This document shows, piece by piece, positions 24,182 to 44,086 of a stretch of 64,000 bases of DNA. Each line of letters starts with the position of its first letter. Within the stretch, counting starts at the first letter, position 1. Where the stretch lies: the NCBI GenBank assembly GCA_947589225.1, contig CANQBC010000005.1, positions 9,006-73,005 on the forward strand, given 5' to 3'. The DNA is from an uncultured Oscillospiraceae bacterium (GTDB lineage: Bacteria > Bacillota > Clostridia > Oscillospirales > Oscillospiraceae). The notes beneath the pieces are model-generated. The model was given only the letters and a program-made list of their open reading frames with translations. It ran no database searches and had not been told where the DNA came from. A program made the translations under genes and the position numbers.

Positions 24182-24826
24182 ATGCGGAGGATCAGGAGGA
24201 TCGTCTGGAGCCTGAGGAGAAAGAGGTTTGGCATCGGGCTCGTGATCTTAGGCGCGGGAGTGCTGGTTATTACGCTTCTGCTGACAGTGAAGCTGACGCC
24301 CACAGTGACGGAGCTGGCTCTGGCCACGGCTACGGACGATATCACCATTATCGTCAACGACGTGGTGTCGGATATACTGAATGAGGGAGAGCTGGACTAC
24401 GAAAACCTTGTTACCTTGGAGCGTGACGCTTCCGGCTCGGTGACAGCGCTTATCGCCAATTCCGCCAATATAAACGCCTTGAAGGCCAGGATCACAAACG
24501 CGGTGGTGGAGAGGTTTGCGGATACGGATATCACACATGTCACCGTGCCGCTGGGGAATCTCATCGGCGGGACGCTTCTCTCGGGCAAGGGGCCAAGGGT
24601 GAAGCTGGACATACTGTCGGTGACAAATGTGGTGACCAGTTTTCGGAATGAATTTACCTCAGCCGGGATAAATCAGACAAGACACAGGATAATAATGGAT
24701 GTGGAAGTCTCGCTCGAGGTGCTTTTGGGGCCCGACAGTGGGACGGACGCGGTGCTCACCGAGGTGATCGTGGCCGAGACGGTGATAGTCGGCTCTGTTC
24801 CGTCAGCTTACGCGTCGCTGCAATGA
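24182..24826 (+). CDS. yunB: Sporulation protein YunB-like
   Basis: Basic N-terminus plus a single TM helix, then a ~180-aa domain ending ...NQTRHRIIMDVEVSLEVL.... Size and architecture fit YunB. The assignment is from memory of the family only. Confidence 0.5.
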   Translation: MRRIRRIVWSLRRKRFGIGLVILGAGVLVITLLLTVKLTPTVTELALATATDDITIIVNDVVSDILNEGELDYENLVTLERDASGSVTALIANSANINALKARITNAVVERFADTDITHVTVPLGNLIGGTLLSGKGPRVKLDILSVTNVVTSFRNEFTSAGINQTRHRIIMDVEVSLEVLLGPDSGTDAVLTEVIVAETVIVGSVPSAYASLQ

Positions 24827-26812
<1,986 letters not shown>

Positions 26813-26850
26813 AAGAACTTGGCACCACACAGCACTTTTGAGGTATTTCA

Positions 26851-29166
26851 ATGAAAAAAAGCGTTTTTTCCATAATTATCACAGCAATACTGGCCGTAAC
26901 GTTCATTCCCTCCTCCTGCGCTGCCCAGGGTGGAACCGGAGATGCGCTCTATGAGAACACCTGGGAGCTGATGGATGGATTTTATTACACGAATACCATC
27001 TCCAACAATTCCTCCGGCAAGCGGGTCGAGACCTTCTCCGTGGAGACCACGCCAGACAGCCCGGTGTATCCGATTGTTATGGCGGAGGACAAGATATATT
27101 CCACAATGACGATCGACAAGATGGTGGAGTATGCCCAAAGCATTGGGCTCAACGTCCACGCGGCCATAAACGCCGATTTCTTCTACACCTCCATGAGCAT
27201 GCCTCTTGGCGGCGTCATCCAGGAGGGGGAATACATAACCGACATGAACGATGAGAATATGCTGGCTTTCGGCGATGAAGGGGCATTTTTCGTAAGCGGG
27301 CCCAAGGTGGAGATGACGCTTGAAAACCATGGCGGCGGAGAGTACACCGATGGGCAGTCGGGCGAGACACACTCTAACAAGGGGGTCAACGTGCGCGTCA
27401 CTCACTACAACAAGATGCGCACCCAGACAGGAGGGATGTTCCTCTACACAAGCGCGTATCATGAAAGCTCCACCCAAACGAATCTTCCCGGATGGGCGGT
27501 GATTTTTAAAATCCTTGAGGGGACTGTAACCGTGTCCGGCGAGGTTCGTTTACAGGTGGAGGAGGTCATACCGGACGGCCGGAACTTCAAGCTGGATGAG
27601 CAGCACATGGTACTGACAGCGCAAAGCACAAGCGTCTATCCCGAGGGGTACAAGAGCTTCAGCGTAGGCGACGAGGTCACGCTGAAAACGGTTTGCTCAG
27701 ATAAAAAACTTATAGACGCCAAATGGGGCACCGGGTGCGGCGACGCCATTGTGATGGACGGTGCGGTCACAAAAAAGGACAGTTGGGATAAGGATCTTAC
27801 AAGCATCCATCCCAGGACGGCGCTGGGGATCAAGCCGGACGGCTCCGTCATTGCCTACGTTGTGGACGGACGGCAGAGCGCCTATTCAAACGGAGCGCTT
27901 CTGGAGGAGATCGCCGCGGATATGTTAGCCCGCGGGTGCGTAACTGTTGTGAATCTGGACGGCGGGGCGTCGTCGGTCATGAGCGTCAGGATGCCGGGGC
28001 AGAAGCTGAGCTCCATTGTCAACCGGCCTTCCAACGGCGCGCCGAGAAGCTGTTCCTCCTACATACTTTTTGTATCGGACACCGAAACCGACGGAGATGC
28101 CGCCAGGCTGAATGTTTCCCAGGACGGGGCGTTTGTGCTGGCCAGATCTGAGCTCCCCCTGGAGTTTACCGCCACGGACGGCGGCGGTATGCCCGCCAAG
28201 GTTCCGGAGGACATTGTCGTTACGGCTAAGCTTGGCACCTTTGCGGACGGGGTCTACACCGCCGGGGACGAGGGCGGAGTTGACGTTCTGTCTCTTTGGT
28301 CGCCGTCGTTGGGTATTGGCGGCGAGTGCCGGATCCATGTTTTGACCGAGGTGGATTCCATATCTGTCACCGATGCCGGGACGGGCAAGGCCCCCGGGCT
28401 TACGGGGCTTGAGGATGGGGACAGCATTAAGCTGAATGTCTCCGCCCTGAGGCTTACACGGTCCGTCGCGGTCACGCAAGCGCTTGTGGAGTATTCGCTC
28501 ACCGAGGGGATTGGGACTGTCACAGACGGTGTTTTGACGGTGACTGAAGGGGATGTGTATGAGGGGACGCTCACCGCGGCCCTCGGAGGAAAGACGGTGG
28601 AGATCCCCGTGACGCGCCATAAACCCACGGGATTCCCCGACACGAAGGGGCATTGGGCGGACGCGGATATAGCACTGCTGCGGGACAGCGGCGTTGTCGG
28701 AGGCTACGGGGACGGAAACTTCTATCCGGAAAACCCCATGACCAGGGCGGAGTTTGTAACGATGTTATGGAAAGCCCTTGACCAGCCGAAAGTGGGATCT
28801 GCGTGTACCTTTAACGATGTCGCCCCGGGCAGTTGGTACTACGATCAGATCGCCTGGGCTCAAGCCGTCGGCATTACCAATGGCTCAGGAGATGGGGGAT
28901 TTTCACCTGACGGTTTTTTGACCCGCGAGCAGGGATTTACCATGATCTACCGGCTCCTGTCCACCATGCGCATGGAGCTACCGGAGCCCGACAGGACTGT
29001 GCTTGAGGCGTTTGCCGACGCCGGAGACGTGTCGGATTACGCCGCGGACGGCATATCCAGTCTTGTAAAGTACGGGTTGGTAAACGGGATGGGAAATATG
29101 CTTTCCCCGCAGGGTACGCTCAAAAGGGCGCAAATGGCTGCTCTTTTGGTCAGGGCACTTTTCTGA
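26851..29166 (+). CDS. Secreted phosphodiester glycosidase-family (DUF2233-like) protein with C-terminal SLH cell-wall anchor repeats
   Basis: N-terminal signal peptide, a central NLDGGASS motif, and three SLH-like repeats at the C-terminus (FPDTKGHWADADI..., FNDVAPGSWYYDQIAWA..., FADAGDVSDYAADGISSL...). Confidence 0.65.
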   Translation: MKKSVFSIIITAILAVTFIPSSCAAQGGTGDALYENTWELMDGFYYTNTISNNSSGKRVETFSVETTPDSPVYPIVMAEDKIYSTMTIDKMVEYAQSIGLNVHAAINADFFYTSMSMPLGGVIQEGEYITDMNDENMLAFGDEGAFFVSGPKVEMTLENHGGGEYTDGQSGETHSNKGVNVRVTHYNKMRTQTGGMFLYTSAYHESSTQTNLPGWAVIFKILEGTVTVSGEVRLQVEEVIPDGRNFKLDEQHMVLTAQSTSVYPEGYKSFSVGDEVTLKTVCSDKKLIDAKWGTGCGDAIVMDGAVTKKDSWDKDLTSIHPRTALGIKPDGSVIAYVVDGRQSAYSNGALLEEIAADMLARGCVTVVNLDGGASSVMSVRMPGQKLSSIVNRPSNGAPRSCSSYILFVSDTETDGDAARLNVSQDGAFVLARSELPLEFTATDGGGMPAKVPEDIVVTAKLGTFADGVYTAGDEGGVDVLSLWSPSLGIGGECRIHVLTEVDSISVTDAGTGKAPGLTGLEDGDSIKLNVSALRLTRSVAVTQALVEYSLTEGIGTVTDGVLTVTEGDVYEGTLTAALGGKTVEIPVTRHKPTGFPDTKGHWADADIALLRDSGVVGGYGDGNFYPENPMTRAEFVTMLWKALDQPKVGSACTFNDVAPGSWYYDQIAWAQAVGITNGSGDGGFSPDGFLTREQGFTMIYRLLSTMRMELPEPDRTVLEAFADAGDVSDYAADGISSLVKYGLVNGMGNMLSPQGTLKRAQMAALLVRALF

Positions 29167-29176
29167 ATAAAAAATC

Positions 29177-29200
29177 GACGGCGCGGTTTTCCGCGCCGTC
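29177..29200. terminator. Bidirectional terminator between the SLH protein gene and the cotJC fragment
   Basis: GACGGCGCGG-TTTT-CCGCGCCGTC. It is flanked by an A run on the plus strand, which reads as a T run on the minus strand. Confidence 0.6.
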
Positions 29201-29227
29201 ATTATCGATCCAGAGGCTTTTTACCGG

Positions 29228-29738
29228 TCACTTGTCAAAGGACGGGTTCATATAGTAGACGTTCTTCTGATCCATTTTGTCGAGAGTACGGCCCAGGGCC
29301 TCGCCGAAGCGCTGGAAATGGACGACTTCACGTTCACGCAGGAACTTCATGACGTTGTTGACATCCGGGTCGTCGGAGAGGCGCAGGATGTTGTCGTAGG
29401 TGGTGCGCGCCTTTTGCTCGGCGCCCATGTCCTCGGTGAGATCGGTAATGGTGTCGCCCTTGACGCCGATGGTGGCGGCTGTCCAGGGGGTACCGGAGGC
29501 AAATTGGGGGTAGATCCCGGCGGTATGATCCACGAAATAGGTGTCAAAGCCGGCCTTCTTGATTTCCTCGGGCGTCATGTCCCGGGTAAGCTGATGGACC
29601 ACTGCGGCTACCATCTCAAAGTGCCCAAGCTCCTCAACGCCGATGTCGGTGAGTAGACCGCGAAGCTCCGGGTAGGGCATGGAGTAGCGCTGGCTCAGAT
29701 AGCGCAGCGAAGCGGCAAGCTCTCCGTCAGGGCCACCT
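29228..29738 (-). pseudogene. cotJC: CotJC-type manganese-catalase-family gene lacking its first ~28 codons (interrupted by prophage insertion)
   Basis: The in-frame translation upstream of the track ORF reads ...SGGPDGELAASLRYLSQRYSMPYPELRGLLTDIGVEELGHFEM.... This matches the CotJC/Mn-catalase core from the conserved GG(P/A)DGELAA onward. Homology stops at about 29738, there is no start codon or RBS, and the integrase stop codon lies 25 nt away. Confidence 0.8.
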
Positions 29739-29763
29739 GATACCGTCAGACTATTATCATCGG

Positions 29764-31242
29764 CTATAAAAATAGTCGGTAGCTTATGGAGAGGGTCATT
29801 GTGGAGCGGTTGAAGGTGATGGTCTCGGCGATATTGCGGAGGGCGGTATTCTTTTCATCCAGGGGGGCGTCGGGGGAGGTGAGCGTATTATAGGCATCCC
29901 GTATTCTCTCCGACAGGGCGGCGGCAAGGAGGGCGGGAGAGGACTCTGTTTTTTCAGCGTTCGCAATCTCCTCTGTAAGGTCCTCCGCCTGACTGTCAAG
30001 CTCTGATTTAAAGTGCGTGAACTGGTCAAGGCCGATGGCGCCGGAAAGGTAAGCGTCCATCAGACGGGCGCTTCTCTTCTCTGTGTCGGCCAGAGAGGCG
30101 CGCAGACGGGCAAGCTCGCTGGCGCGTGCCGGGCTCTGGGGGGAGACGGTGAAGCTCAGGGGAACGGCGGACGACATATCCTCCCGAAGCTTTTCTATCA
30201 GCGCGTCGTGTAGAAGATCCACGCGGATATGCTGGGAGCTCCTGCACCGGCCGCGCATATAGTTGTTGCACTTGAAATATCGGGGCTTTACAAATATCAA
30301 CGTAGACCCGCACTCGGAGCACCGGACAAGGCCGGATAGCCAGTCCTTCAGCTCGTAGGTGGGGCGGGCCTTATAGCCCCACACAGCCTTGATCTCTGCG
30401 ATCCTCTTCTGCGCGGCCTCGAATACCTCCTCGGAGACAATGGGCTCATGAGAGGCGTCGGCCACGATGGTGTCCGGGTTTTCAAAGTTCCGCCTGGCTC
30501 TGCCTGTGGGCGTCCAACGGAGCTTTCCCACATACACGGGGTTGCGCAGCATATATTCAACCGTCCGGTTCTCAAAGGGGTTTCCCCGGTGGGTACGGAT
30601 CCCCTGGGCGTTGAGCCATTTGGCGATGGGGTAAAATCCCTCGCCGCCGTTGAAGCGGTCGAAGATCTCCCGGACAAGCCGCGCCTCCTCCGGAATAATC
30701 TCAAGGGTCGATTTCCGGCCGGGTTCCATATGGACCCGGTAGCCGAAGGGGGGCGTGGACTGGAGCTCCCCGCGCTCGGCTTTGACCTTCATTGTGCGCT
30801 TGACCTCCTGACTGAGGCGGATGGAATAGAATTCGTCAAACCACTCGATGATCCGCTCGATGAGGGAGGCGAAGGGGCCGCCGGGGAGGGGTTCGGACAC
30901 GGAGATCACGTCCACGCCGCACTGCTTGCGCAGCAGGGCCTTATAGACAATGCTCTCCTCCTGGTTTCGGGCGAAGCGCGAGAACTTCCACAGCAGTATG
31001 ACGTCGAAGGGAGCGGGGTTCTCCTTGGCGGCGCCGATCATCCTCTGAAAGGCGGGGCGGTTTTCGCTGCGCTTGCCGGATATGCCCTCGTCCATGAAGA
31101 TGAGGTCGTCGGGCAGGAGGATATTGTTAGCCGCGGCGTACTTGCGGATCTCAATGAGCTGGCTTTCCGGGGACTGATCCGCCTGTTCGTCGGTGGACAC
31201 GCGGATATACGCGGCGGCGGTGCGGAGGAGGGATGGGGGCAT
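29764..31242 (-). CDS. Large serine recombinase (phage integrase)
   Basis: N-terminal resolvase catalytic domain (AAAYIRVSTDEQ), recombinase domain, zinc ribbon (CSECGSTLIFVKPRYFKCNNYMRGRC) and a C-terminal coiled coil. Confidence 0.9.
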   Translation of the reverse strand: MPPSLLRTAAAYIRVSTDEQADQSPESQLIEIRKYAAANNILLPDDLIFMDEGISGKRSENRPAFQRMIGAAKENPAPFDVILLWKFSRFARNQEESIVYKALLRKQCGVDVISVSEPLPGGPFASLIERIIEWFDEFYSIRLSQEVKRTMKVKAERGELQSTPPFGYRVHMEPGRKSTLEIIPEEARLVREIFDRFNGGEGFYPIAKWLNAQGIRTHRGNPFENRTVEYMLRNPVYVGKLRWTPTGRARRNFENPDTIVADASHEPIVSEEVFEAAQKRIAEIKAVWGYKARPTYELKDWLSGLVRCSECGSTLIFVKPRYFKCNNYMRGRCRSSQHIRVDLLHDALIEKLREDMSSAVPLSFTVSPQSPARASELARLRASLADTEKRSARLMDAYLSGAIGLDQFTHFKSELDSQAEDLTEEIANAEKTESSPALLAAALSERIRDAYNTLTSPDAPLDEKNTALRNIAETITFNRSTMTLSISYRLFL

Positions 31243-31310: not shown

Positions 31311-31820
31311 TTAGCTTTCGTTATTATAATTTAATTCAAGAACAATGCCTTCGCTTTCCTTGTCACTAAGCCCATATTCTTCTGCGTCACTTACCCGGCA
31401 ATGAAAACGGTATGGTGAATCAAATGAGAGCGTGGGATATTCGATTGGAACATAACTTCCGCTCTCGTAGTATTTATAACTGTCAACGACCTTGCCGCCT
31501 TCAAAATTATCGCTTCTGTAATAATATTCCGATATTGCTACCAACAATGTACCGTTACTTACAGACTTAGCCTCACACACGATGTATTCCGCCCCCCTTG
31601 CAGGGTGAAGACTATCTGAAATTACATACTTAGGCTCACAATACGTAATGTCTATATAAACTTTATCAGATTTCTCTGAATCTGAGCTGTATGCTACTTC
31701 TACGTTATTCTTTTCGTTGAACTCCAATGGGAGGAGAAGAACAAGTAATAAAATTGTAACTATAGCAAACCCCCACAGTAAAACCCAGGGAAAATCTTTT
31801 TCTCGGACTCTAATAGCCAT
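31311..31820 (-). CDS. Membrane-anchored protein (N-terminal TM helix + ~130-aa external domain); last gene of the AT-rich cassette
   Basis: Start chosen at MAIRVREKDFPWVLLWGFAIVTILLLVLLLP. The longer 225-aa track ORF would overlap the upstream gene. AT-rich. No recognisable family. Confidence 0.5.
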   Translation of the reverse strand: MAIRVREKDFPWVLLWGFAIVTILLLVLLLPLEFNEKNNVEVAYSSDSEKSDKVYIDITYCEPKYVISDSLHPARGAEYIVCEAKSVSNGTLLVAISEYYYRSDNFEGGKVVDSYKYYESGSYVPIEYPTLSFDSPYRFHCRVSDAEEYGLSDKESEGIVLELNYNNES

Positions 31821-31840
31821 ACCTGAATGCCTTCTTTCTT

Positions 31841-32125
31841 TTATCGTTTTGTACGGTGCCGGAGGATCATATACCATGCTGCCAGGACGGCTGGGTAAGC
31901 GATAAGATAGATGATACAGTGAAGGTCGAAAGGTTCGACTTTGCCGAACAGCAGGAAGCACAGTACAAAGACCCACAGCACGGTACACAGGGACAGCAGC
32001 GTCTCTGTGACTGTGGGCCTGTTATATGGGTCTTCACACCACTTCCGCTTGTAGTCCTCCCGGTATAAAAACCGCAGGATTATCTGACCGATAAAACGGA
32101 AGGGGCCGGGAAAAGAATTACTCAT
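31841..32125 (-). CDS. Small membrane protein (2 predicted TM helices)
   Basis: 94-aa ORF with hydrophobic segments LLSLCTVLWVFVLCFLLF and IIYLIAYPAVLAAWYMIL. Same strand and tightly spaced with its neighbours. Confidence 0.45.
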   Translation of the reverse strand: MSNSFPGPFRFIGQIILRFLYREDYKRKWCEDPYNRPTVTETLLSLCTVLWVFVLCFLLFGKVEPFDLHCIIYLIAYPAVLAAWYMILRHRTKR

Positions 32126-32132
32126 GGGCGGG

Positions 32133-32330
32133 TCACTTTCCGTCGAAATCTCCGCGAGTGGTTTTACGAATCAAGTAAACAAACGGAGCGTATAAAAGAA
32201 CTGTCAACAAAGCACCAAGGCTGATGTGAGCGAACATACTTAAGGAAACTGTAATTGCAGATGGTATAAAAAGCCACAGAATAATAAGACCGATTCTTTT
32301 TACAATACGCATATTGGGAATCTCCTTCAA
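32133..32330 (-). CDS. Small membrane protein (2 predicted TM helices)
   Basis: 65-aa ORF (IGLIILWLFIPSAITVSL, LGALLTVLLYAPFVYLI). Its start codon directly abuts the stop of the upstream gene. Confidence 0.45.
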   Translation of the reverse strand: MKEIPNMRIVKRIGLIILWLFIPSAITVSLSMFAHISLGALLTVLLYAPFVYLIRKTTRGDFDGK

Positions 32331-32885
32331 TTATTTCTTTTTCATAGAAAAAGCGGTAAACAAGGCGCCGGGTATAAAAACGATACCTATTGCCGTAGCA
32401 AAAAAGAAAAGCGCACCAATTATACCGAAAACAATTGAAACGGCGGTAGACTTAGAGAGAATCGCAGCCAAGTTGAAGAGAAACCCGTCAGGTGAGATTT
32501 TCCCGTGTAATATGAAAAAGAACACAGGAACCAATATAATCATAATCAGTGAGGCTGCGGAGCGATTATCTGAGTTTCCGTAAGCTGCATAGTCTTTTTT
32601 TTCTTGTGCTTTTTGCTTTGCCTTATATGAGTTTGCGGCCACACCTGAACAGGCCCATATACCGAGAAGAATTGTTACAAGAATTTGGACAAACGTGCTC
32701 TTTCCTGCCAGAAAAGGAGTGACGCTATAAGCGAGAATGGCGGAAGAAACGGAGTGAATGAACAGGTATGCAAAGACACTTTTCAAATGCCTGATAAGTA
32801 CTTGAAAAACTGAAACAATTATTTTATATACAAAGTCAAAAGCGACAAAAATCAAAATGCAATGAAAAAAAGCCAAGTTGTGCAC
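32331..32885 (-). CDS. Polytopic membrane protein (about 5-6 TM helices); first gene of the AT-rich cassette
   Basis: 184-aa ORF that is hydrophobic throughout, with one basic loop (KAKQKAQEKKD). The start is either the GTG at 32885 or, more likely, the TTG at 32876, which lies 8 nt after AAAGGAAG. Confidence 0.5.
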   Translation of the reverse strand: MHNLAFFHCILIFVAFDFVYKIIVSVFQVLIRHLKSVFAYLFIHSVSSAILAYSVTPFLAGKSTFVQILVTILLGIWACSGVAANSYKAKQKAQEKKDYAAYGNSDNRSAASLIMIILVPVFFFILHGKISPDGFLFNLAAILSKSTAVSIVFGIIGALFFFATAIGIVFIPGALFTAFSMKKK

Positions 32886-32988: not shown

Positions 32989-33513
32989 TTACCCTACTTG
33001 CTTAGACTCCGGGCGCTTTAGGAACTGGGCGTCGCTGGCAATTTTCGTTAGCTCATACATAGCCGCGCCTTGCCCAGCCTCATTCAGAAGCATAAAAAGA
33101 TTGTAGAGCTTATTGAAATTTACCATTTCTGAGTCTTTTGGAAGCGATTCTTCAAGGCGTTTCTCATATCCGGCAAAACTTGGAACACCCTCCTTGAGGA
33201 GAATATAAATCTTCTCAAGGAGCGAGGCGTTGAAGAAATCATTATACATATCAATGTGCCATTCACTGTCGCCTGTGGCAAGTTTAACTTTAGAGCTAAA
33301 GCCAAACTCTCCCATAATATCATCGACATTATAAATATCACAAAGGGCAATAAACGTATTGACGCGGGGAGTGGAGACGCCGGATTCGTAGCCGTAAAGT
33401 GTTTTCGTGCTAATGTCTATACCGCGATTCTTCAGTTTTTCAACAACTTCTTCAGAAGACAGGCCGGAACTTGTACGCAGATTCCGCAAGATCCCAGCCG
33501 GTAAATCGTTCAT
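32989..33513 (-). CDS. XRE-family HTH repressor (CI-like) with C-terminal domain
   Basis: HTH region LRTSSGLSSEEVVEKLKNRGIDISTKTLYGYESG. The ATG at 33513 lies 8 nt after AGGAGG. It is divergent from a Cro-like gene. Confidence 0.75.
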   Translation of the reverse strand: MNDLPAGILRNLRTSSGLSSEEVVEKLKNRGIDISTKTLYGYESGVSTPRVNTFIALCDIYNVDDIMGEFGFSSKVKLATGDSEWHIDMYNDFFNASLLEKIYILLKEGVPSFAGYEKRLEESLPKDSEMVNFNKLYNLFMLLNEAGQGAAMYELTKIASDAQFLKRPESKQVG

Positions 33514-33669: not shown

Positions 33670-33870
33670 GTGAGCGTAGAAAAAAGGATTGCAGACGAGA
33701 TAAAAAAATCTGGCATGACCGTTGCGGCCATCTGCCGAATGACCGGCATTAAACCGGGGGCGCTTTATCCTGCTGTAACAGGAAAGCGCGAGCTTCGCGC
33801 AGATGAGTTCCTGGCGTTATGCCAGATTTTACGTCTTGACCCGCGGGATGTCGCGGACAAAAGCGCGTGA
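33670..33870 (+). CDS. Cro-like small HTH protein
   Basis: 66 aa with a GTG start after AGAGG. HTH region MTVAAICRMTGIKPGALYPAVTGKR. It is the first gene of the rightward operon. Confidence 0.6.
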   Translation: MSVEKRIADEIKKSGMTVAAICRMTGIKPGALYPAVTGKRELRADEFLALCQILRLDPRDVADKSA

Positions 33871-33886
33871 GAGGGGCGTGAGCGGG

Positions 33887-34096
33887 ATGGAACGGGTCTA
33901 TACGATTAAACAGGCAAGGCTCCTTGCGGGGCTGACGCAGGAAAAAACGGCGGCTGAAATGGGAATATCTCGTGACCGCTACATGAAGCTGGAGAAAAAC
34001 CCGGAGCTTGTGACAGTTGGACAGGCGCGGGAGATAAGCAGGATCACCGGCATACCGTTTGAACAGATCTCTTTTGAATATAGAGAGAGGAGGTGA
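33887..34096 (+). CDS. XRE-family HTH protein
   Basis: IKQARLLAGLTQEKTAAEMGISRDRYMKLEKNP is a classic HTH_3 pattern. The start was refined to the ATG at 33887. Confidence 0.6.
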   Translation: MERVYTIKQARLLAGLTQEKTAAEMGISRDRYMKLEKNPELVTVGQAREISRITGIPFEQISFEYRERR

Positions 34097-34803: not shown

Positions 34804-35028
34804 ATGAAAAAACAACAGAAGATCACGGTGAAGTCGTATGTCCATTACCGGGGGGAGATGGTGGAATTTTGTGAGCTCCCCCCGGAGGTGAAGCAGCAGG
34901 CGGCCACAGCGCTTGCGCTTAAATACTTCAACACCCTCTTTGCCGGGAAGGCCGTTTTCACCGTGGCGGAGGGGGCGGAAGCGGAAAAGGCGGCGCGGCC
35001 GGGCTGCGCTGGGCCGGAGGCCGTCTGA
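34804..35028 (+). CDS. Hypothetical phage protein (74 aa)
   Basis: The ATG at 34804 opens MKKQQKITVKSYVHYRGEMVEFCELPPEVK.... This is the internal start of track ORF 34555-35028. Confidence 0.4.
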   Translation: MKKQQKITVKSYVHYRGEMVEFCELPPEVKQQAATALALKYFNTLFAGKAVFTVAEGAEAEKAARPGCAGPEAV

Positions 35029-35054: not shown

Positions 35055-35396
35055 TTGTACAAAAGAATGAAATGGGACAAGGTGTCCAGAACGGACAGGG
35101 CGCGGCGCCGGCGGACAAGGCGGCGGGCGCTTACCGCGGTGAAGTGGGCTGTTGTGCTGTCCTGCGCCGCGGCCTTCGCCGGGTATCTCGCCCGGCTGTC
35201 CGGGGGTGTGTTTACGGGGCAGGACACGCTGGTCATATTTGCGGACGCGGTGATCCTCTACCGGCTTCTGGAGAGGGCCGCCGTCTGGACGGGTGACGCC
35301 CTGCGGGAGATCATCAGGGCAAGGACGCGGGAGAAGGTGATGGCCAGACGGTTCGCCTCGGCGGGGCGGCTGTCTGAAAGGAGGGAGAGCGCTTGA
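35055..35396 (+). CDS. Hypothetical protein with an Arg-rich N-terminus and one TM helix
   Basis: RRRRTRRRALTAVKWAVVLSCAAAFAGYLA. Same strand, with overlapping stop and start with the next gene. Confidence 0.4.
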   Translation: MYKRMKWDKVSRTDRARRRRTRRRALTAVKWAVVLSCAAAFAGYLARLSGGVFTGQDTLVIFADAVILYRLLERAAVWTGDALREIIRARTREKVMARRFASAGRLSERRESA

Positions 35397-35593
35397 GCGG
35401 GGAGAAGCACAGCCAGGACTTTGAGCGGTACAAAAAGGGACTTACATATTATGCGAAGGACCTGAAAAACAGGATCTATCTCCTCTACCGGGCCGCGTTG
35501 GACGCGGCCCATCACGACGATTTCACCCCGGCGGAGCTGGAAGGACTGGCAAAAATCGCCTTTCCGGAACGGGAGGGGAGCGGCGATGGGTGA
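35393..35593 (+). CDS. Hypothetical phage protein (TTG start)
   Basis: ORF track. Overlaps both neighbours by a few nt, which is typical phage packing. Confidence 0.35.
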   Translation: MSGEKHSQDFERYKKGLTYYAKDLKNRIYLLYRAALDAAHHDDFTPAELEGLAKIAFPEREGSGDG

Positions 35594-35831
35594 TCCGAAC
35601 TGCGCCAGATGCCGGCTCGCCCGCAGGGGCGAGGCGATCCGGGGACGGGTGACGTACAGGTGCTTTGACCCGGAAGGGCGGCTCACGGATCCGTCGACCG
35701 GACAGCCGGGCAGGCCAACGACGGGGCGCGTCGTGGCGTCGCCCATGCCGAGGGAAGTTGCCGAAAGGCTGGGGATCGAGGCCCCGGCGTGGTGCCCTCG
35801 TCGTCGCGGAGAGGAGGGGAGCGGAGCGTGA
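35586..35831 (+). CDS. Hypothetical small Cys-containing protein
   Basis: CARCRL...YRC...WCP, a possible zinc-binding arrangement. Confidence 0.35.
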   Translation: MGDPNCARCRLARRGEAIRGRVTYRCFDPEGRLTDPSTGQPGRPTTGRVVASPMPREVAERLGIEAPAWCPRRRGEEGSGA

Positions 35832-35968
35832 AAAGGCGTGACTTAAGAGAAGGCGGTATGTTCGCGGCGATCGGCGTGGTGTTGTACGTCGCCGTGGGGC
35901 TGGCGCTGAGGGCGATGGGGGTGTGAGGGGGCGGCGAGGGGAAGGCTAACAGAAAGGGAAGGTCAAAA

Positions 35969-36358
35969 ATGTCAAAACCTTATGATTATCCCGGAGGATT
36001 TCTGCTGACAAAGAAGAAGGCAGAGGCTCTGGCGATACAGGAATTCGGGACGGCCCGAGGGCTGGAGCAGGAAGTTGGGATGGGGAAAGGGTTTTTCCTC
36101 ATGCGAATCGGGAAGCTGGTGGTAAGGTTCAAGCCGGATGTGATTTTCAACAGTGGAAGGATACGGGTAGATGTTGAAATGTGGAACACATCGGGCTTCC
36201 TCTGCAAGTTTTATGACCGTGAAACGCTGGAGGAAGACTTTGATGTTCTTCAACGGTATCTCGGGCAGCGAGAGCGGGAGCTCCTGAAGGACTGGGTAGA
36301 CACCTCCAGCGCGGAGTATTGCCACAGGGAGATCGACATTCTCAACGAAGGGAGGTGA
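35969..36358 (+). CDS. Hypothetical phage protein (129 aa)
   Basis: Clean ORF with the ATG shortly after GGAAGG. No recognisable family. Confidence 0.45.
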   Translation: MSKPYDYPGGFLLTKKKAEALAIQEFGTARGLEQEVGMGKGFFLMRIGKLVVRFKPDVIFNSGRIRVDVEMWNTSGFLCKFYDRETLEEDFDVLQRYLGQRERELLKDWVDTSSAEYCHREIDILNEGR

Positions 36359-36363
36359 AGGAT

Positions 36364-36738
36364 GTGAAAGAGGAATTTGAGGCGAAGAGCGTGATGGAGA
36401 TGTCTGGCGGGGCTATTCTGGAGCGGGTCAACGTGGAGATGGCGCGGGTGGTGGAGAATATTCTTGACCCCAACGCCAAGGCGGACGCCAAGAGGAAGAT
36501 CACGGTCACTCTGGAGCTGACGCCCAGCGCGGACCGGAAGAACATCACCGTCAAGACCACGGCCAAGAGCACGCTGGTACCCACGGACGCGGTGACAACG
36601 AGCCTCTTCATCGCCGGGAAGCCCCTGTCCGGGGAGATGGCGATATATGAGGCGGTGCCCCAGGTGCCGGGGCAAATCGGCATGGACGGGGCGGAGCAGA
36701 GCAAACCGAAAATTTTAAAGATCCCCTACGCGGGGTAA
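36364..36738 (+). CDS. Phage protein of the family often annotated 'replication terminator protein'
   Basis: A GTG at 36364 lies 8 nt after GGAGG. The pattern ...SGGAILERVNVEMARVVENILDPNAKADAKRKITVTLELTP... resembles that family as I remember it, but this is unverified. Confidence 0.4.
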   Translation: MKEEFEAKSVMEMSGGAILERVNVEMARVVENILDPNAKADAKRKITVTLELTPSADRKNITVKTTAKSTLVPTDAVTTSLFIAGKPLSGEMAIYEAVPQVPGQIGMDGAEQSKPKILKIPYAG

Positions 36739-36750
36739 GGAGGAAAAGAT

Positions 36751-37467
36751 ATGCTGAAAGAATTTGCCGAGTACCTTCAGAAGATGAAGGAGAACAAGAC
36801 ATATGAGATCGGGGGCCGCACATACTCAGATAACCCCCTTGTAGAGATCGAAGCGCCGGTGGACAGGCCGAAGGAGCTGGAGATAAACGGCCTTGACAGC
36901 TGCGTGGCGCTTATCCAGCGGGAGATCGGTAAGATAAGGAGCCTCCCGGTGTATGTCCGGGTGGTGAGCCCGCGTCTGGTCGAGGTGTTCACGGAGTGGG
37001 ACGAAAGATTTGAGCGGGACAGGCTGTACCGCGTCAGCTGTGATGCGCCGCAGTTTCTGCCGGGGTGGATGGACTACGAGTCGGCCATTATCAAACTGCG
37101 GAGCGGCTTTGTGGTGAACGAGGGGATCGATTACCTGCTGGACCTGCTGGGCTCCATCAAGCGGGATGACGGCGTGAATACGGAGGACAACGGCGTCTCC
37201 CAGATCGTCACCGCAACACAGGGGGTGAGCCTCAAGAGCTTTGTCGGCGTGAAGCCCCGTGTGGCGCTGGCACCCTACCGGACTTTCACCGAGGTCATGC
37301 AGCCGGTCAGCGAATTCCTGCTTCGACTGGACAACGACGGCCGGGTGGGTCTCTTCGAGGCGGACGGCGGGTTCTGGCGGTTGGAGGCAAAGAAGAATAT
37401 CGCTGATTACTTCGCCGGACAGCTCCAAAAGGAAATCAGTGACGGGGCCGTCGTGGTGATGGTATAA
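36751..37467 (+). CDS. Hypothetical phage protein (238 aa)
   Basis: Clean ORF after AGGAGGAAAAG. No recognisable family. Confidence 0.5.
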   Translation: MLKEFAEYLQKMKENKTYEIGGRTYSDNPLVEIEAPVDRPKELEINGLDSCVALIQREIGKIRSLPVYVRVVSPRLVEVFTEWDERFERDRLYRVSCDAPQFLPGWMDYESAIIKLRSGFVVNEGIDYLLDLLGSIKRDDGVNTEDNGVSQIVTATQGVSLKSFVGVKPRVALAPYRTFTEVMQPVSEFLLRLDNDGRVGLFEADGGFWRLEAKKNIADYFAGQLQKEISDGAVVVMV

Positions 37468-37583
37468 AAAATAGCCGCCGCGGCGGGAACCGTGGCGGCA
37501 AGGCGCTGGGGATATTGAATTGACACTTCTATTTTACCACTTTCCCGGCGCTTGTCAAGAAATACAATGAAAGGATGAAAAAA

Positions 37584-37949
37584 ATGACAGCGATAGAGCG
37601 GATAAATGCCGAGATGCAGAAAAAACCTGACGACAGGTACACGGAGATCGTGGGGCAGTACGTCATAGACAGGTGCGCCGCGCCTGAGGAAGAGAAGAAG
37701 GTCACGGAAGATAAGACGCTGAAGGGGGCGATGGAAGCCGTCTACGGGTTGGCCCAGAAAAAGAAGCAGGGGAATATGGCGGTACTCACGCCCGCAGATG
37801 TCTTTGGAGAGGTGGACAAATACTTTGGATTTACCACCGACGAGGCGGCCCAGTGGAAAGCTGTGGGACTGACGGCGCCGGCGGAGGAAGGGAAGTCGTC
37901 GGGTCACGGGACAACGAGGATGGCCCTGGATCTGGATAATTTGTGGTGA
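37584..37949 (+). CDS. PcfK-like protein
   Basis: About 120 aa, with the pattern ...YVIDRCA....KTLKGAMEAVYGLAQKKKQGNMAVLTPADVFGEVDKYFG. It lies immediately upstream of a PcfJ-like gene, which is the pairing seen on pCF10. The start was refined to the ATG 8 nt after AAAGGA. Confidence 0.5.
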   Translation: MTAIERINAEMQKKPDDRYTEIVGQYVIDRCAAPEEEKKVTEDKTLKGAMEAVYGLAQKKKQGNMAVLTPADVFGEVDKYFGFTTDEAAQWKAVGLTAPAEEGKSSGHGTTRMALDLDNLW

Positions 37950-37954
37950 GCGGG

Positions 37955-39943
37955 ATGAGGATACCGAAGGAGATCAGGCGGATGGCATGGCCAGAAAAGC
38001 CGGAAAAAATCCAGAACCGGGAAAGTATCAAGTTTTATGTAGCGGCGGAGATCATCAGCGCAGACGGAGCGGAATGGCTCATTGTGACCTTTGTCCCCAG
38101 TAAAGAGGGGCGGTGCGCATTTCGTTACGTCCTGTCAAAGGAGCGGGGATGGGCGGTGCTGCTGAACGCTGAAGGGACAGGCCCCCGGACAACGCCTCTC
38201 AGAGAAATGCTTCATGCCGAATGGTGCTGGCCGGACTATGGCTGGTTCCATGTGAAAGCAAAAAATCAGGATAAAGAGTCAATAGCCCGGTGGCTTGGGC
38301 TGAAATCTGTGAAAGCCGAGAAAAAGGAAGATCATTATTTGCTCGCGTTGGACGCATGGATGAGAGAGGACGCGGAAAAACGGCGGGAGGCACGGCGCAA
38401 AGCAAATGGCGAGATCGAGGACGGCGAGGAATACCTCTGTCCCGAGGAGTTCCCGGAGGGGATCGTGAACTATATACGCCGTACCGTACTGCCGGAGGAC
38501 GCCACGCTTCTGTATAAAAAGGGCGGCGTTCGGGGGCTCTGCTATATATGCGGGCATGAGGTCAGGGCTAAGCCGGGACAGAAATTCCGCAAGGGAGAAC
38601 AGGTCAAATGCCCGCATTGCGGAAGCACAGTCACCGCCGCGCTGGCCTACGGGGCGGGCTTCAGATCAGATTACGTGGAGAACATCGCCTCGATCTCAAA
38701 AGGCAAGGATGGAGAGACAGTCTTTGTGAGGCTTTGGCACCTCCGGCGGGACTATACAGCGAAGTGGGAGAACATTCCGGGACAGCTTCAGGAGATCACC
38801 AGATGGGCCATTCGCGGCAACAAGGTCGCCAAGTGGGAGCATGAACACAAATTTAACTGGGGAATGGCCTGCTACCGAGAGAGACTGAGAGGCTGGGAAA
38901 AGGTAGATACCCTGACTGAAATACTCGATTACACATACTATTTTTACCTCCCCTCTGACTGGAGGAGCGTTTTTGCCGGAACAGGGCTCCGGTATTGCGA
39001 GCCGGAACAATACCTCAGTCAGGAGAGACAGAGGACGACCGGCACGCTGAACCCCATTCGCTTTCTTTTGGACTGGGCACGGTATCCGGCCATTGAGCTC
39101 TTTTGGAAGGCGGGATACAGGGAGCTTGTGAACGGGCGGATGAGAAGCCACTGCTACACGAAAGAGGCCAATAGCAGTATCAACTGGCGCCGCAGGAGCA
39201 TAGGTGACGCCGTTCGGTTCCCGAAGAGGTACCTGAAGCTGATACCGCCTGAAGAGTGGTCCCTTACAAAGGCTGGATACATTGTGGACGTGATATCCAA
39301 GCTCGGGGAGCTGCCGGACAAAAACGCGCAGACAATTTTGCAAAGGGGCATAAGTGCGGAGTGCGTCAAGGACGCCGCGCAGCACTCTTCCCTGACAAAG
39401 GTTCTGAACTACCTGAAGCGGTGGGATCAGTTTATGTTCCGGGACTATATAAGCGAATGCCTGAAGCTCAAGCTTGATCTTAATGACCGGGCTGTGCTGT
39501 TTCCGAAAAACCTCCAGTCTGCCCATGAACGCACATCGGCTATGGTGGAATATGAGAATAATCCCAAACAATGGGATAATTTTGTGAAGCGCGCGAAAAA
39601 ACTGAAAAAATATGCGTGGAATATGGGTGGACTTATGATCCGCGCGGCGGAATATCCGACCGAATTAAAGGTCGAGGGGGCGGCGCTCGGGCACTGTGTT
39701 GCCGGATACGCGAAGGACGTGGCAAACGGAAAGACATCCATATTCTTTGTACGGCGCACTGCAGAGCCGGACAGGCCGTATTTTACTCTGGAATACAAAA
39801 ACGGCAGAGTCGCCCAGTGCAGGACAAACAGCAATGTAAGCTACGAGAGCTTCCCGGAGGTCAAGGCGTTTGTAGAAGCGTGGTGCGAATGGCTCGGGAA
39901 GTCCTTCAGGAACGGTTTAGCGGCCGGTGCACCGGCGGCGTGA
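37955..39943 (+). CDS. PcfJ-like protein with an internal zinc ribbon
   Basis: The C-terminal LKVEGAALGHCVAGYAKDVANGKTSIFFVRRTAEPDRPYFTLEYKNGRVAQCRTNSN matches the PcfJ signature (EG..L.HCV..Y). An upstream zinc ribbon reads CYICGHEV...CPHCGS. Confidence 0.6.
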   Translation: MRIPKEIRRMAWPEKPEKIQNRESIKFYVAAEIISADGAEWLIVTFVPSKEGRCAFRYVLSKERGWAVLLNAEGTGPRTTPLREMLHAEWCWPDYGWFHVKAKNQDKESIARWLGLKSVKAEKKEDHYLLALDAWMREDAEKRREARRKANGEIEDGEEYLCPEEFPEGIVNYIRRTVLPEDATLLYKKGGVRGLCYICGHEVRAKPGQKFRKGEQVKCPHCGSTVTAALAYGAGFRSDYVENIASISKGKDGETVFVRLWHLRRDYTAKWENIPGQLQEITRWAIRGNKVAKWEHEHKFNWGMACYRERLRGWEKVDTLTEILDYTYYFYLPSDWRSVFAGTGLRYCEPEQYLSQERQRTTGTLNPIRFLLDWARYPAIELFWKAGYRELVNGRMRSHCYTKEANSSINWRRRSIGDAVRFPKRYLKLIPPEEWSLTKAGYIVDVISKLGELPDKNAQTILQRGISAECVKDAAQHSSLTKVLNYLKRWDQFMFRDYISECLKLKLDLNDRAVLFPKNLQSAHERTSAMVEYENNPKQWDNFVKRAKKLKKYAWNMGGLMIRAAEYPTELKVEGAALGHCVAGYAKDVANGKTSIFFVRRTAEPDRPYFTLEYKNGRVAQCRTNSNVSYESFPEVKAFVEAWCEWLGKSFRNGLAAGAPAA

Positions 39944-39956
39944 AAGGAAGGTACAT

Positions 39957-40979: not shown

Positions 40980-40984
40980 CCAGA

Positions 40985-41007
40985 AAAAAAGCCGCCCTTT
41001 TGGGCGG
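40985..41007 (-). terminator. Terminator for the small leftward gene pair
   Basis: The minus strand reads GCCGCCC-AAAA-GGGCGGC followed by TTTTTTT. Confidence 0.55.
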
Positions 41008-41016
41008 CCGGGGCCG

Positions 41017-41321
41017 TCACTTCTCCGTAATGGGTTTGGCCTTCTCTTTTGTACTCTTGGCTTTGCCCTGAAGCTCGGGGACCGGAGGAACCTCATTCCT
41101 CGGTTTGATATGCGTCCATTCCGGACGTTTCATACCCTTCTTCGCCACGGCGATCACCTCCGGAACGGTGTATCGCCGGATTCCCGGTGGGGAACGGCCC
41201 GGAGATCCTCAAGGTCGGCGGCGGGGATGTCGTTCTCAATGTTGTCGCGGGCAAGGTCATTGTCAATAACGGGATAAATTCCCGGCTGAATGGGGATTTC
41301 AAGATCCTTCCGTTTGTTCAT
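41017..41321 (-). pseudogene. Small leftward gene apparently split by a -1 frameshift
   Basis: MNKRKDLEIPIQPGIYPVIDNDLARDNIENDIPAADLEDLRAVPHRESGDTPFRR stops at 41154-41156. Another frame continues as EVIAVAKKGMKRPEWTHIKPRNEVPPVPELQGKAKSTKEKAKPITEK, ending at the 41017-41019 stop. The junction sits at TTCCGG (about 41160). Confidence 0.3.
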
Positions 41322-41340
41322 AAAAACACCTCTAACTGTG

Positions 41341-42667: not shown

Positions 42668-42704
42668 GCCGCAGGGGCAGATGGTGATGTTTTGAGGTGT
42701 AAAA

Positions 42705-44035: not shown

Positions 44036-44086
44036 CAATTCAGAAAAGGGGGCGGGAGGGTCTGGAGCCCTCCCCTACAGGGCGTA

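What the first reader, a model, noticed from the sequence alone, without database searches (positions are those of the whole stretch)
29228..29766. Prophage with a large serine integrase is inserted inside a cotJC-type (spore-coat Mn-catalase) gene
**Seen in the sequence**
- The minus-strand frame upstream of the annotated Met reads ADDNSLTV-SGGPDGELAASLRYLSQRYS-MPYPELRGLLTDIGVEELGH....
- Homology to the CotJC/Mn-catalase family therefore begins abruptly at the conserved GG(P/A)DGELAA block, ending at about nt 29738.
- The ~28 N-terminal codons, the start codon and the RBS are all absent.
- The stop codon of a large serine recombinase lies only 25 nt away (29764-29766).

**Established knowledge**
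- Serine-recombinase elements split sporulation genes and excise in the mother cell to rebuild them. Examples are skin in sigK and SPbeta in spsM of Bacillus subtilis, and skinCd in Clostridioides difficile.

**Inference**
- This ~35+ kb phage may act as a comparable intervening element or regulatory switch for cotJC.
- I do not recall cotJC being a described target for such elements.
- yunB elsewhere in the window supports a sporulating host.
Basis: partly seen in the sequence, partly recalled or inferred. Interest (0 to 1): 0.75.

Follow-up and report, generated by a model that had tools for sequence, protein, structure and literature searches.

The report
Prophage splits spore-coat catalase gene cotJC
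A 43-kb temperate phage has used its large serine integrase to insert into codons 30-32 of the spore-coat manganese-catalase gene cotJC of a gut Oscillospiraceae bacterium; cutting the phage out on the computer rebuilds an intact 198-residue gene, making this a new example of a known kind of event rather than a new mechanism.

Summary
Window 29228-29737 (minus strand) is the 3' part of cotJC, codons 30-198. It is preceded by 26 nt of phage DNA and the stop codon of an intact 492-aa large serine recombinase (LSR).

The 5' part is not in the window. I found it on a contig of the same strain (100% identical overlap). It lies 43,395 bp away, directly after a fused cotJA-cotJB gene and 27 nt from the last phage gene.

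- Both junctions share a 9-bp core, GGTGGCCCT.
- The reconstructed attP has perfect 15-bp inverted arms around a central GG.
- In-silico excision gives a 198-aa ORF, 194/198 identical to intact orthologues.
- Prophage-free relatives carry the intact 198-aa gene.

The same codon is hit repeatedly in other species by other phages. Their LSRs are 100, 77, 58 and 47% identical to this one. An unrelated LSR hits a second site near codon 136.

Whether excision is tied to sporulation, as for skin and SPbeta, is untested. I found no sporulation-type promoter. The best RDF candidate sits in the early lytic operon.

cotJC is already named in the literature as a target, so this is a new member of a known kind.

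The parts
29228..29737 (-). cotJC 3' fragment: codons 30-198 plus the stop codon of a 198-codon CotJC/Mn-catalase gene. The only remaining in-frame start is the ATG at 29680, giving a 150-aa ORF that would lack Glu35.
   Evidence: Pfam PF05067 E=9.5e-40 from profile position 28. 96-98% aa identity to intact 198-aa relatives. Nucleotide homology to intact genes begins at 29737.
29729..29737 (-). 9-bp common core GGTGGCCCT (read on the minus strand), present at both prophage junctions. The inferred crossover dinucleotide is the GG at 29734-29733.
   Evidence: Comparison of the window junction with the distal junction on same-strain contig L045. The centre of symmetry of the reconstructed attP falls on this GG.
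29738..29763 (-). Phage (P) arm of the attachment site, CCGATGATAATAGTCTGACGGTATCA. The 15-nt inverted-repeat arm GATAATAGTCTGACG lies at 29758-29744.
   Evidence: Its perfect inverted partner CGTCAGACTATTATC sits at the distal junction. The arm motif GATAATAG(Y)CTG is conserved in related lysogens.
29764..31242 (-). Large serine recombinase (phage integrase), 492 aa, apparently intact.
   Evidence: Resolvase, Recombinase and Zn_ribbon_recom domains. N-terminal YIRVSTDEQ motif read in the ORF translation. Homologues of 77%, 58% and 47% identity lie next to the same cotJC break.
31311..32876 (-). Low-GC (40-48%) accessory genes between the repressor and the integrase, with ORFs at 31311-31820, 32133-32312 and 32331-32876. 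Function unknown.
   Evidence: Composition. No Pfam, PHROG or PADLOC hit. A lysogen with the identical integrase has a different gene here, an Mrr_cat gene in L002.
32989..33513 (-). CI-like HTH repressor.
   Evidence: HTH_31/HTH_3. Divergent sigma70-like promoters at 33542-33630.
33670..34096 (+). Two Cro-like HTH genes at the start of the early operon.
   Evidence: HTH_26 and HTH_3 on the called genes. Promoter TTGACT-17-TATAAT at 33602-33630.
34804..35028 (+). 74-aa orphan protein. It is a candidate recombination directionality factor (hypothesis only).
   Evidence: It is the only early-region ORF conserved in two otherwise different phages that carry the same LSR family: L014 65% identity, L063 43%. 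No family hit.
35055..45371 (+). Early and replication region, including PcfJ-like, DUF3102 and replication-initiation proteins.
   Evidence: Pfam on called genes. PHROG hits, e.g. phrog_3584 replication initiation for 44562-45371.
46378..63170 (+). Virion and lysis module: terminase large subunit 46378-47955, portal 47963-50008, major head 51723-52733, tail protein 53167-56325, CHAP endolysin 57403-58080, internal virion protein 60036-61640, and a 491-aa protein at 61695-63170.
   Evidence: PHROG hits. Pfam on called genes.
63188..64000 (+). Start of a 3302-aa giant phage gene (weak PBECR5 hit). It is the last phage gene. On the same-strain contig its stop lies 27 nt from the distal att core, at window-equivalent position about 73,160.
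24182..29166 (+). Host flank: yunB (24182-24826), ligA (24839-26812) and an NAGPA/SLH cell-wall protein (26851-29166), convergent with cotJC.
   Evidence: Pfam. The same synteny is seen at empty sites in related species.
29176..29201 (-). Intrinsic-terminator-like hairpin after the cotJC stop codon.
   Evidence: 11-pair stem (9 GC) followed by a T run.

Best explanation
**What it is (shown)**
- A 43.4-kb temperate, probably short-tailed phage is integrated in cotJC of a spore-forming Oscillospiraceae host.
- Its LSR recombined a phage attP with a host attB lying in codons 30-32 (GGT GGC CCT = Gly-Gly-Pro).
- attP has 15-bp perfect inverted arms, a 20-bp spacer and a central GG.
- The gene is now split in two.
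  - Codons 1-32 stay behind the cotJ promoter and the fused cotJA-cotJB gene, at the far end of the prophage.
  - Codons 30-198 lie in the window beside the integrase.
- No full-length CotJC can be made from the lysogen chromosome. The only possible product of the 3' part is 150 aa, which would lack the N-terminal helix and Glu35.
- attL x attR recombination would rebuild a perfect 198-codon gene.

**How it most likely works (inferred)**
- The phage family targets this site because the sequence is strongly conserved across hosts and the gene is dispensable for growth.
- The integrase is probably made constitutively from the lysogeny operon. This rests on gene order only.
- Excision is probably controlled by an RDF expressed from the early lytic operon. 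The 74-aa ORF at 34804-35028 is my candidate.
- On this reading cotJC is off in lysogens and returns only when the prophage is induced or lost.
- Sporulation-timed excision in the mother cell is the main alternative. It cannot be decided from sequence.
For: **Same-strain continuation**
- L007 is 100% identical to window 51695-64000, and L045 is 100% identical to L007 over 9,950 nt.
- The distal junction reads cotJAB, then ATG..SQYGGP, then the phage arm, 125 nt from the cotJAB stop to the giant-gene stop.

**Attachment sites and excision**
- 9-bp shared core, 15-bp perfect inverted repeat, 43,395 bp core to core, and a restored 198-aa ORF 194/198 identical to P0004.
- I predicted the distal arm from the symmetry of the window arm. 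A pattern built on that prediction retrieved a real cotJC 5' junction in another genome, L019.
- L013 has both junctions on one contig. It gives the same central GG and a 14-bp perfect inverted repeat, and excision restores the frame.

**Empty sites**
- Intact 198-aa genes are present in L003-L006, L040 and L041-L044.

**The element is a phage with an intact integrase**
- LSR domains are complete.
- Terminase, portal, head, tail, endolysin and internal virion proteins are present.
- There is a CI/Cro-like switch with divergent promoters.

**Recurrence at the same codon**
- L014: different prophage, LSR 77% identical.
- JGI contigs: LSR 58% identical.
- L002: identical LSR with a different neighbouring gene.

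**Evidence that does not favour a sporulation switch**
- No sigmaE/sigmaK-type promoter match in a sensible position.
- The RDF candidate sits in the early lytic operon.
- A decayed element with a 282-aa truncated LSR sits in the same site in L013.
Against: - Per the papers read here, the sporulation-gene-splitting elements that were examined (sigK, spsM, spoVFB, spoVR, gerE, yabG) excise during sporulation or with growth phase. By analogy, sporulation-coupled excision has a substantial prior.
- Both cotJC fragments are undamaged. The first 29 codons match an intact orthologue 29/29, and there are no frameshifts or stops. This fits continued use of the gene, though it also fits a recent insertion.
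- The promoter scan used Bacillus/Clostridioides consensus patterns. Those of Oscillospiraceae are unknown, so the negative result is weak.
- The RDF is not identified with any confidence.
- No attP or attB form of this strain was found in the collections searched. Excision activity itself is therefore not demonstrated.
Confidence: 0.55

Rival explanations
1. **Developmental switch, like SPbeta-spsM or skin-sigK.** The prophage is excised by the LSR plus an RDF specifically in the mother cell during sporulation. This rebuilds cotJC in time for coat assembly, while the forespore keeps the prophage. Excision on SOS induction serves the lytic cycle separately.
For: - In B. subtilis, cotJ is a mother-cell (sigmaE) operon. 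This is established knowledge and was not tested here.
- All structural requirements are met: an LSR at one end, precise restoration of the ORF, and intact fragments.
- The host carries sporulation genes, yunB and cotJA/B.
- The papers read here report the same pattern for sigK, spsM, spoVFB, spoVR, gerE and yabG.
- LSRs ranging from 100% down to 47% identity keep the same target codon. This suggests long-term, stable use of the site.
Against: - No sporulation-type promoter was found in the 34 kb of phage in the window.
- The only conserved RDF candidate lies in the early lytic operon.
- Per PMC11222575, mutating the two C. difficile CotJC homologues cotCB and cotD reduced catalase activity but caused no other significant coat defect. 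Selection for timed excision would therefore be weaker than for sigK.
- L013 shows a decayed, probably immobile element in the same site.
Confidence: 0.35
2. **Locked or defective prophage.** The element can no longer excise, so cotJC is a permanent pseudogene in this strain.
For: - No excised form (attB protein product or attP) of this strain was found in any collection.
- All five assemblies with the same cotJAB protein show the same neighbouring genes, i.e. the lysogen arrangement.
- L013 shows that such decay happens at this site.
Against: - The LSR is full length with all three domains.
- The att arms are perfect.
- A complete virion and lysis gene set and a CI/Cro switch are present.
- Both gene fragments are intact.
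- An identical LSR occurs in a phage with a different neighbouring gene (L002). This suggests recent mobility.
Confidence: 0.08
3. **No insertion.** The short gene is the natural form in this lineage, or the junction is an assembly chimera.
For: None beyond the bare fact that a 150-aa ORF with its own ATG exists.
Against: - Related prophage-free genomes have 198-aa genes.
- The missing 5' part is found at the other phage end.
- The same junction was assembled independently in several ENA and Logan samples.
Confidence: 0.01

Closest known systems
SPbeta prophage in spsM of Bacillus subtilis (SprA integrase, SprB RDF)
   Same: - An active temperate phage with an LSR splits a mother-cell sporulation gene.
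- The integrase sits next to one att site.
- Precise excision restores the ORF (PMC4191935 and PMC5499854).
   Different: - The target gene (cotJC), the host class (Clostridia, Oscillospiraceae) and the phage type all differ.
- The best phage-database LSR match is only 40.7% identical, and Bacillus phage LSRs are about 25%.
- No RDF gene lies beside int.
- Sporulation-specific excision is not shown here.
skin elements in sigK (B. subtilis SpoIVCA/Skr; C. difficile CD1231/CD1234)
   Same: An LSR-bearing element inside a mother-cell gene, reconstituted by excision (PMC5025042 and PMC6957869).
   Different: - skin is a defective prophage and sigK is essential for sporulation.
- Here the phage looks complete, and the target is a coat enzyme that is probably dispensable.
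vfbin (spoVFB), vrin (spoVR), gin (gerE) and yin (yabG, C. botulinum) intervening elements
   Same: The same class: a mobile element with its own recombinase inside a sporulation gene.
   Different: - Those were shown experimentally to excise; this one was not.
- gin is not a prophage.
- The yin paper describes yin as unique to one strain. The cotJC site is used repeatedly across species.
cotJC listed as an integration target by Abe et al. 2013 (Mol Microbiol 90:415), as cited by Kohm et al.
   Same: [quoted passage not shown]
   Different: - I could not read Abe 2013, so the species, site and recombinase type there are unknown to me.
- I found no paper describing att sites, reconstitution or Oscillospiraceae hosts for cotJC.
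phi027 prophage next to the CotJC-like Mn-catalase gene CDR20291_1465 in C. difficile R20291
   Same: A prophage adjacent to a CotJC homologue in a clostridial spore former (PMC11222575).
   Different: The paper describes the gene as adjacent to the prophage, not split by it. I did not examine whether the att site lies inside it.

Membership tests
Large serine recombinase (phage-type serine integrase) | N-terminal resolvase catalytic domain with the serine nucleophile | tested here: met
   PF00239 E=5e-26, residues 9-159. The motif AAYIRVSTDEQ is read in the translation.
Large serine recombinase (phage-type serine integrase) | C-terminal Recombinase domain plus zinc-ribbon domain | tested here: met
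   PF07508 E=9e-27 (residues 184-283) and PF13408 E=8e-10 (residues 301-353).
Large serine recombinase (phage-type serine integrase) | Short attP and attB sites with imperfect dyad symmetry around a central crossover dinucleotide; the product sites are hybrids | tested here: met
   - attP has 15-bp perfect inverted arms, a 20-bp spacer and a central GG.
- attB is weakly symmetric.
- attL and attR are hybrids sharing a 9-bp core.
- The same centre is seen in L013.
Large serine recombinase (phage-type serine integrase) | Catalyses attP x attB without host factors; attL x attR needs an RDF | not testable with these tools
   This needs in vitro or in vivo recombination assays. There is only a weak RDF candidate at 34804-35028.
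Sporulation-gene intervening element / phage regulatory switch (skin, SPbeta, vfbin, vrin, gin, yin) | The element interrupts the coding sequence of a sporulation gene expressed in the mother cell | tested here: met
   The interruption lies within codons 30-32 of a CotJC homologue that sits in a cotJA/B-cotJC operon. Mother-cell expression is inferred from the B. subtilis cotJ operon, not tested in this host.
Sporulation-gene intervening element / phage regulatory switch (skin, SPbeta, vfbin, vrin, gin, yin) | The element carries its own site-specific recombinase | tested here: met
   The LSR stop codon lies 26 nt from the core.
Sporulation-gene intervening element / phage regulatory switch (skin, SPbeta, vfbin, vrin, gin, yin) | Precise excision reconstitutes an intact, in-frame gene | tested here: met
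   In-silico excision gives a 597-nt ORF of 198 aa, 194/198 identical to an intact orthologue. It aligns from residue 1 with solved Mn catalases.
Sporulation-gene intervening element / phage regulatory switch (skin, SPbeta, vfbin, vrin, gin, yin) | Excision is triggered during sporulation in the mother cell (recombinase or RDF under sigmaE/sigmaK control) | tested here: inconclusive
   The consensus scan gave no sigmaK or strict sigmaE match. It gave 3 loose sigmaE matches, all antisense inside genes, against 0.8 expected. The consensus for this family of hosts is unknown, so an experiment is needed.
Sporulation-gene intervening element / phage regulatory switch (skin, SPbeta, vfbin, vrin, gin, yin) | The element is retained in the forespore genome and inherited | not testable with these tools
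   This requires cell-type-specific DNA analysis.
CotJC / manganese catalase (PF05067) | Mn_catalase fold over the full length, including the N-terminal helix | tested here: met
   This holds for the reconstituted protein only. It aligns at residues 1-181 to Anabaena Alr3090 (6j42, E=5e-26) and residues 1-177 to L. plantarum catalase (1jku). The window fragment alone starts at profile position 28.
CotJC / manganese catalase (PF05067) | Encoded downstream of cotJA and cotJB | tested here: met
   A fused CotJA+CotJB gene (153 aa) ends one base before the cotJC ATG on L045, and sits equally close upstream at the empty sites.
CotJC / manganese catalase (PF05067) | Catalase activity and spore-coat location | not testable with these tools
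   This needs biochemistry and spore fractionation.

The most novel reading that the evidence does not exclude
cotJC of gut Oscillospiraceae may be a dedicated landing pad for a diversified family of serine-integrase phages, and excision may be timed to sporulation.

- LSRs from 100% down to 47% identity all cut the same GG in codons 30-32. An unrelated LSR uses a second site near codon 136.
- If excision is sporulation-timed, lysogens would make catalase-armed spores while passing the prophage on through the forespore.
- That would be the first phage regulatory switch of this kind in non-model gut commensal Clostridia.
- It would also supply a set of natural LSR/attP/attB variants with known specificity.
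- The flipped-polarity junction in L064-L066 and the in-place inversion of the cotJ operon between sister species could mean that these integrases also reshape the locus.
Probability: 0.3. Interest if true: 0.6.

Novelty: new member of a known kind. Interest (0 to 1): 0.4.

Why it matters
- **Extends a known phenomenon.** Phages splitting mother-cell sporulation genes are well studied in Bacillus and Clostridioides. This case extends the pattern to a coat enzyme gene in uncultured or poorly studied gut Oscillospiraceae, where sporulation governs transmission between hosts.
- **Directly testable.** attB, attP, the core and the integrase are fully defined, together with several natural variants of the same specificity. 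Junction PCR, or searching raw reads for the attB and attP strings, would test excision.
- **Possible tool.** The integrase and its sites could be tried as an orthogonal serine-integrase system.
- **Annotation value.** The many 140-172-aa 'manganese catalase' proteins in databases are prophage-split fragments, not genuine short genes.
- **Limit.** This is not a new mechanism, and cotJC has already been named as a target in the literature.

Tried and rejected
**Looking for the distal end**
1. A 5' cotJC fragment inside the window: none. The best non-self tblastn hit has E=0.003 inside the terminase gene and is chance.
2. Walking past the window end:
   - An exact look-up of the 498-aa TTG-start ORF failed. 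The ATG-start version worked.
   - The giant-protein N-terminus found nothing in the protein search, which cost one search.
   - A viral-contig search with its C-terminus found no relatives.
   - What worked: ids returned by the listing of cluster members are accepted by the look-up of encoding contigs. A shared longest-contig length (177,864) linked the giant protein to CotJAB P0246.

**Looking for an empty site or excised forms**
3. An empty site in the same species: not found.
   - Exact-protein look-ups of the host neighbour returned only lysogens.
   - The closest intact genes come from other species, with 84-87% nt identity in cotJC and about 70-73% in the flanks.
   - The reconstituted 198-aa protein is not in the 15-billion-protein collection.
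4. attP of the free phage in IMG/VR: two patterns gave 0 hits. One 19-nt arm pattern gave an unrelated chance hit, L015.

**Other leads**
5. The best phage-database LSR match, Bajarodcaudo virus 3 (40.7% identity): the inverted repeat next to its integrase shows no resemblance to the cotJC site, so I dropped it.
6. An inversion hypothesis, to explain why cotJC 3' is convergent with the NAGPA gene while L003 has it co-directional. I rejected this for the window: L041 and L014 show that the convergent order is native to this part of the clade. L003 has the operon inverted.
7. Sporulation-promoter pattern scan: nothing usable.
8. PADLOC, Pfam and PHROG searches on the low-GC genes next to int: no hits.
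9. Abe et al. 2013 could not be read.
Full report
**1. The observation**

The minus strand of window 29228-29763 reads ADDNSLTV-SGGPDGELAASLRYLSQRYS-MPYPELRGLL..., as reported.
- Pfam Mn_catalase matches at E=9.5e-40, but only from profile position 28 onward.
- The nearest database relatives are nearly all 198 aa. They start MFSYTKSLQYPVKIRNTNPALAKFIISQY and continue with GGPDGELAAS.
- Nucleotide similarity to intact genes begins exactly at 29737.
- The first in-frame start after the break is the ATG at 29680, giving a 150-aa ORF.
- The ORF ending 26 nt away (29764-31242, minus strand) is a 492-aa large serine recombinase with Resolvase, Recombinase and Zn-ribbon domains.
- tblastn finds no cotJC 5' fragment in the window.

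**2. The element is a prophage that runs past the window**
- Beyond the integrase lie three unassigned low-GC genes and a CI-like repressor. Divergent sigma70-like promoters and Cro-like genes follow.
- Next come early and replication genes, then the virion and lysis genes: terminase, portal, major head, tail protein, CHAP endolysin and an internal virion protein.
- At 63188 a giant gene starts. On same-strain contigs it encodes 3302 aa.

**3. Finding the other end**
- The window is 100% identical to ENA contigs of the same strain: L001 matches window 19764-41242 and L007 matches window 51695-64000.
- The giant protein (P0300) and a CotJA-CotJB fusion protein (P0246) share a longest-contig length of 177,864.
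- Looking up P0246 returned L045, from the same contig as L007, with a 9,950-nt overlap at 100%.
- On L045 the cotJAB gene is followed one base later by ATG TTC TCT ... AGT CAA TAT GGT GGC CCT. That is MFSYTKSLQYPVKIRNTNPALAKFIISQYGGP.
- Phage sequence then follows (TACCTCGTCAGACTATTATCC...), and the stop of the giant gene lies 27 nt from the core.

**4. Attachment sites and in-silico excision**
- 5' junction: ...AAGTCAATAT GGTGGCCCT TACCTCGTCAGACTATTATC...
- 3' junction (window, minus strand): ...GATAATAGTCTGACGGTATCA GGTGGCCCT GACGGAGAGC...
- The shared core is 9 bp, at window 29737-29729.
- The reconstructed attP has perfect 15-bp inverted arms (GATAATAGTCTGACG / CGTCAGACTATTATC) separated by 20 bp. 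The centre of that spacer is the GG of GGT-GG-CCC. This is the architecture expected of a serine-integrase site.
- The prophage measures 43,395 bp from core to core.
- Joining the two host halves gives a 597-nt ORF of 198 aa. It is 194/198 identical to intact P0004.
- The rebuilt protein aligns from residue 1 with solved Mn catalases (6j42, 1jku).
- A 150-aa product from the internal ATG would lack the N-terminal helix and Glu35. In L. plantarum catalase, Glu35 is a manganese ligand. That point is established knowledge and I did not verify it here.

**5. Independent support and recurrence**
- **A prediction that held.** Before I had L045, I predicted the distal arm from the symmetry of the window arm. 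A pattern search of GTDB genomes built on that prediction found a genuine cotJAB-cotJC5'-phage junction in an uncultured Oscillospiraceae MAG, L019...SQYGG|CCTGATACCATTAAACTATAAT.
- **L013 (another species).** Both junctions lie on one contig around a 4.3-kb remnant. Its attP is CTTTTTGCGGTACGGT-GG-TCCGTACCGCAAAAAAG, a 14-bp perfect inverted repeat with the same central GG. Excision restores the frame. The recombinase there is truncated to 282 aa, so the element is probably immobile.
- **L014.** A different prophage (RelB/YoeB, Bro/ANT genes) carries an LSR 77% identical at the same codon, with the same host synteny.
- **Four JGI metagenome contigs.** These carry an LSR 58% identical with the same junction.
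- **L002.** The LSR is 100% identical but has a different neighbouring gene.
- **L046.** An unrelated 517-aa LSR (25% identity) breaks cotJC at a second site, after TEDMGA near codon 136.
- **Database fragments.** Many 140-172-aa 'Mn catalase' entries are such fragments.
- **Empty sites.** Intact 198-aa genes occur in several related species. I found no empty site in the window's own species.

**6. Mechanism**

Shown:
- The gene is split at a defined core by a serine-integrase phage.
- Site-specific excision would restore it exactly.

Inferred:
- The integrase lies at the end of the lysogeny operon, so it is probably made constitutively.
- Excision needs an RDF. The only small early-region ORF conserved among different phages with this LSR family is 34804-35028 (74 aa; 65% and 43% identity in L014 and L063). 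It has no family assignment. It lies in the early lytic operon, which points to excision on induction.

Open:
- A scan for sigmaE/sigmaK-type promoters found nothing usable. The host consensus is unknown, so this is a weak negative.
- I put about 0.55 on passive use of cotJC as a conserved, dispensable attB, with restoration only on induction or curing.
- I put about 0.35 on sporulation-timed excision as in SPbeta or skin.

**7. Comparison with known systems**

The class is well established:

| Element | Split gene |
|---|---|
| skin | sigK |
| SPbeta | spsM |
| vfbin | spoVFB |
| vrin | spoVR |
| gin | gerE |
| yin | yabG |

- The structural criteria for this class are met here. The defining behaviour, excision during sporulation, is untested.
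- Kohm et al. cite Abe et al. [quoted passage not shown] The target is therefore not new.
- I found no paper giving att sites, reconstitution or Oscillospiraceae hosts for cotJC.
- The LSR has no close relative among sequenced phages. The best match is 40.7% identical.

**8. Verdict**

The feature is real, the structural interpretation is correct, and the functional claim is unproven. It is a new member of a known kind. Interest is moderate at 0.4: the att sites are cleanly resolved, the hotspot recurs across species, and there are two unexplained orientation variants, but the mechanism is familiar and the target has already been named.

Noticed in passing
L064-L066 (ENA ERZ27249555, ERZ27249059, ERZ27249546), junction near L066:4806-4930: A related phage (giant gene 89-93% nt identical) abuts the cotJC 3' fragment with its giant-gene end, not its integrase end, at the same codon. 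cotJC 3' is there followed by the Mrp antiporter operon. This is exactly the position where the window strain has cotJC 5' and cotJAB. Both the phage polarity relative to cotJC and the operon orientation relative to Mrp are therefore flipped. A possible explanation is an attP with a reversed central dinucleotide, but this remains unexplained.
   Followed up: partly
L003 versus L041: The cotJAB-cotJC operon is inverted in place between sister species, relative to the conserved ligA-NAGPA-oxidoreductase block. Whether this is linked to the integrase hotspot is unknown.
   Followed up: no
L046:10001-12006 (ENA ERZ27249088 NODE_7): There is a second insertion site in cotJC, after TEDMGA near codon 136. 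It is used by an element with an unrelated 517-aa serine recombinase (DUF4368; 25% identity to the window LSR).
   Followed up: partly
L013:5683-10519 (GCA_054295165.1): A 4.3-kb remnant sits in the same cotJC site. It carries an NAGPA/SLH gene, a 282-aa truncated LSR and a SpoU methylase. It is probably an immobilised element that leaves cotJC permanently split.
   Followed up: partly
window 63188-64000 and onward (L007:11494-21402): A 3302-aa giant phage protein (weak PBECR5 nuclease-domain hit) is the last gene before attP. The related phage in L064 has two giant genes (1827 aa with PBECR3, and 2826 aa). These resemble the 'polyvalent' virion proteins of phages, a comparison from my own knowledge.
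   Followed up: no
window 34804-35028 (+): A 74-aa orphan protein is conserved in otherwise different phages that share this LSR family (L014:922-1251, L063:3190-3387). It is a candidate recombination directionality factor and has no Pfam or PHROG family.
   Followed up: partly
window 31311-32876 (-): A low-GC island (40-48% against about 58%) of three unassigned genes lies between the repressor and the integrase. A phage with the identical integrase (L002) has an Mrr-type restriction gene in this position instead. This looks like a swappable accessory or moron slot.
   Followed up: partly
window 54318-54684: A 93-nt tandem repeat (3.9 copies, 87% matches) lies inside the 1052-aa tail protein gene. 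It encodes repeated ...GEDGK(I/V)PAS... units.
   Followed up: no
window 19811-20268 (-) and 16191-16264 (+): RNase P RNA class A (231 bits) and tRNA-Gln(CTG). The RNase P gene explains a patch of 88-96% identity to genomes that are otherwise about 73% identical.
   Followed up: yes
L003:5537-5998, L045:10001-10462: In this clade cotJA and cotJB are fused into a single gene of about 153 codons, with both Pfam domains in one product.
   Followed up: no
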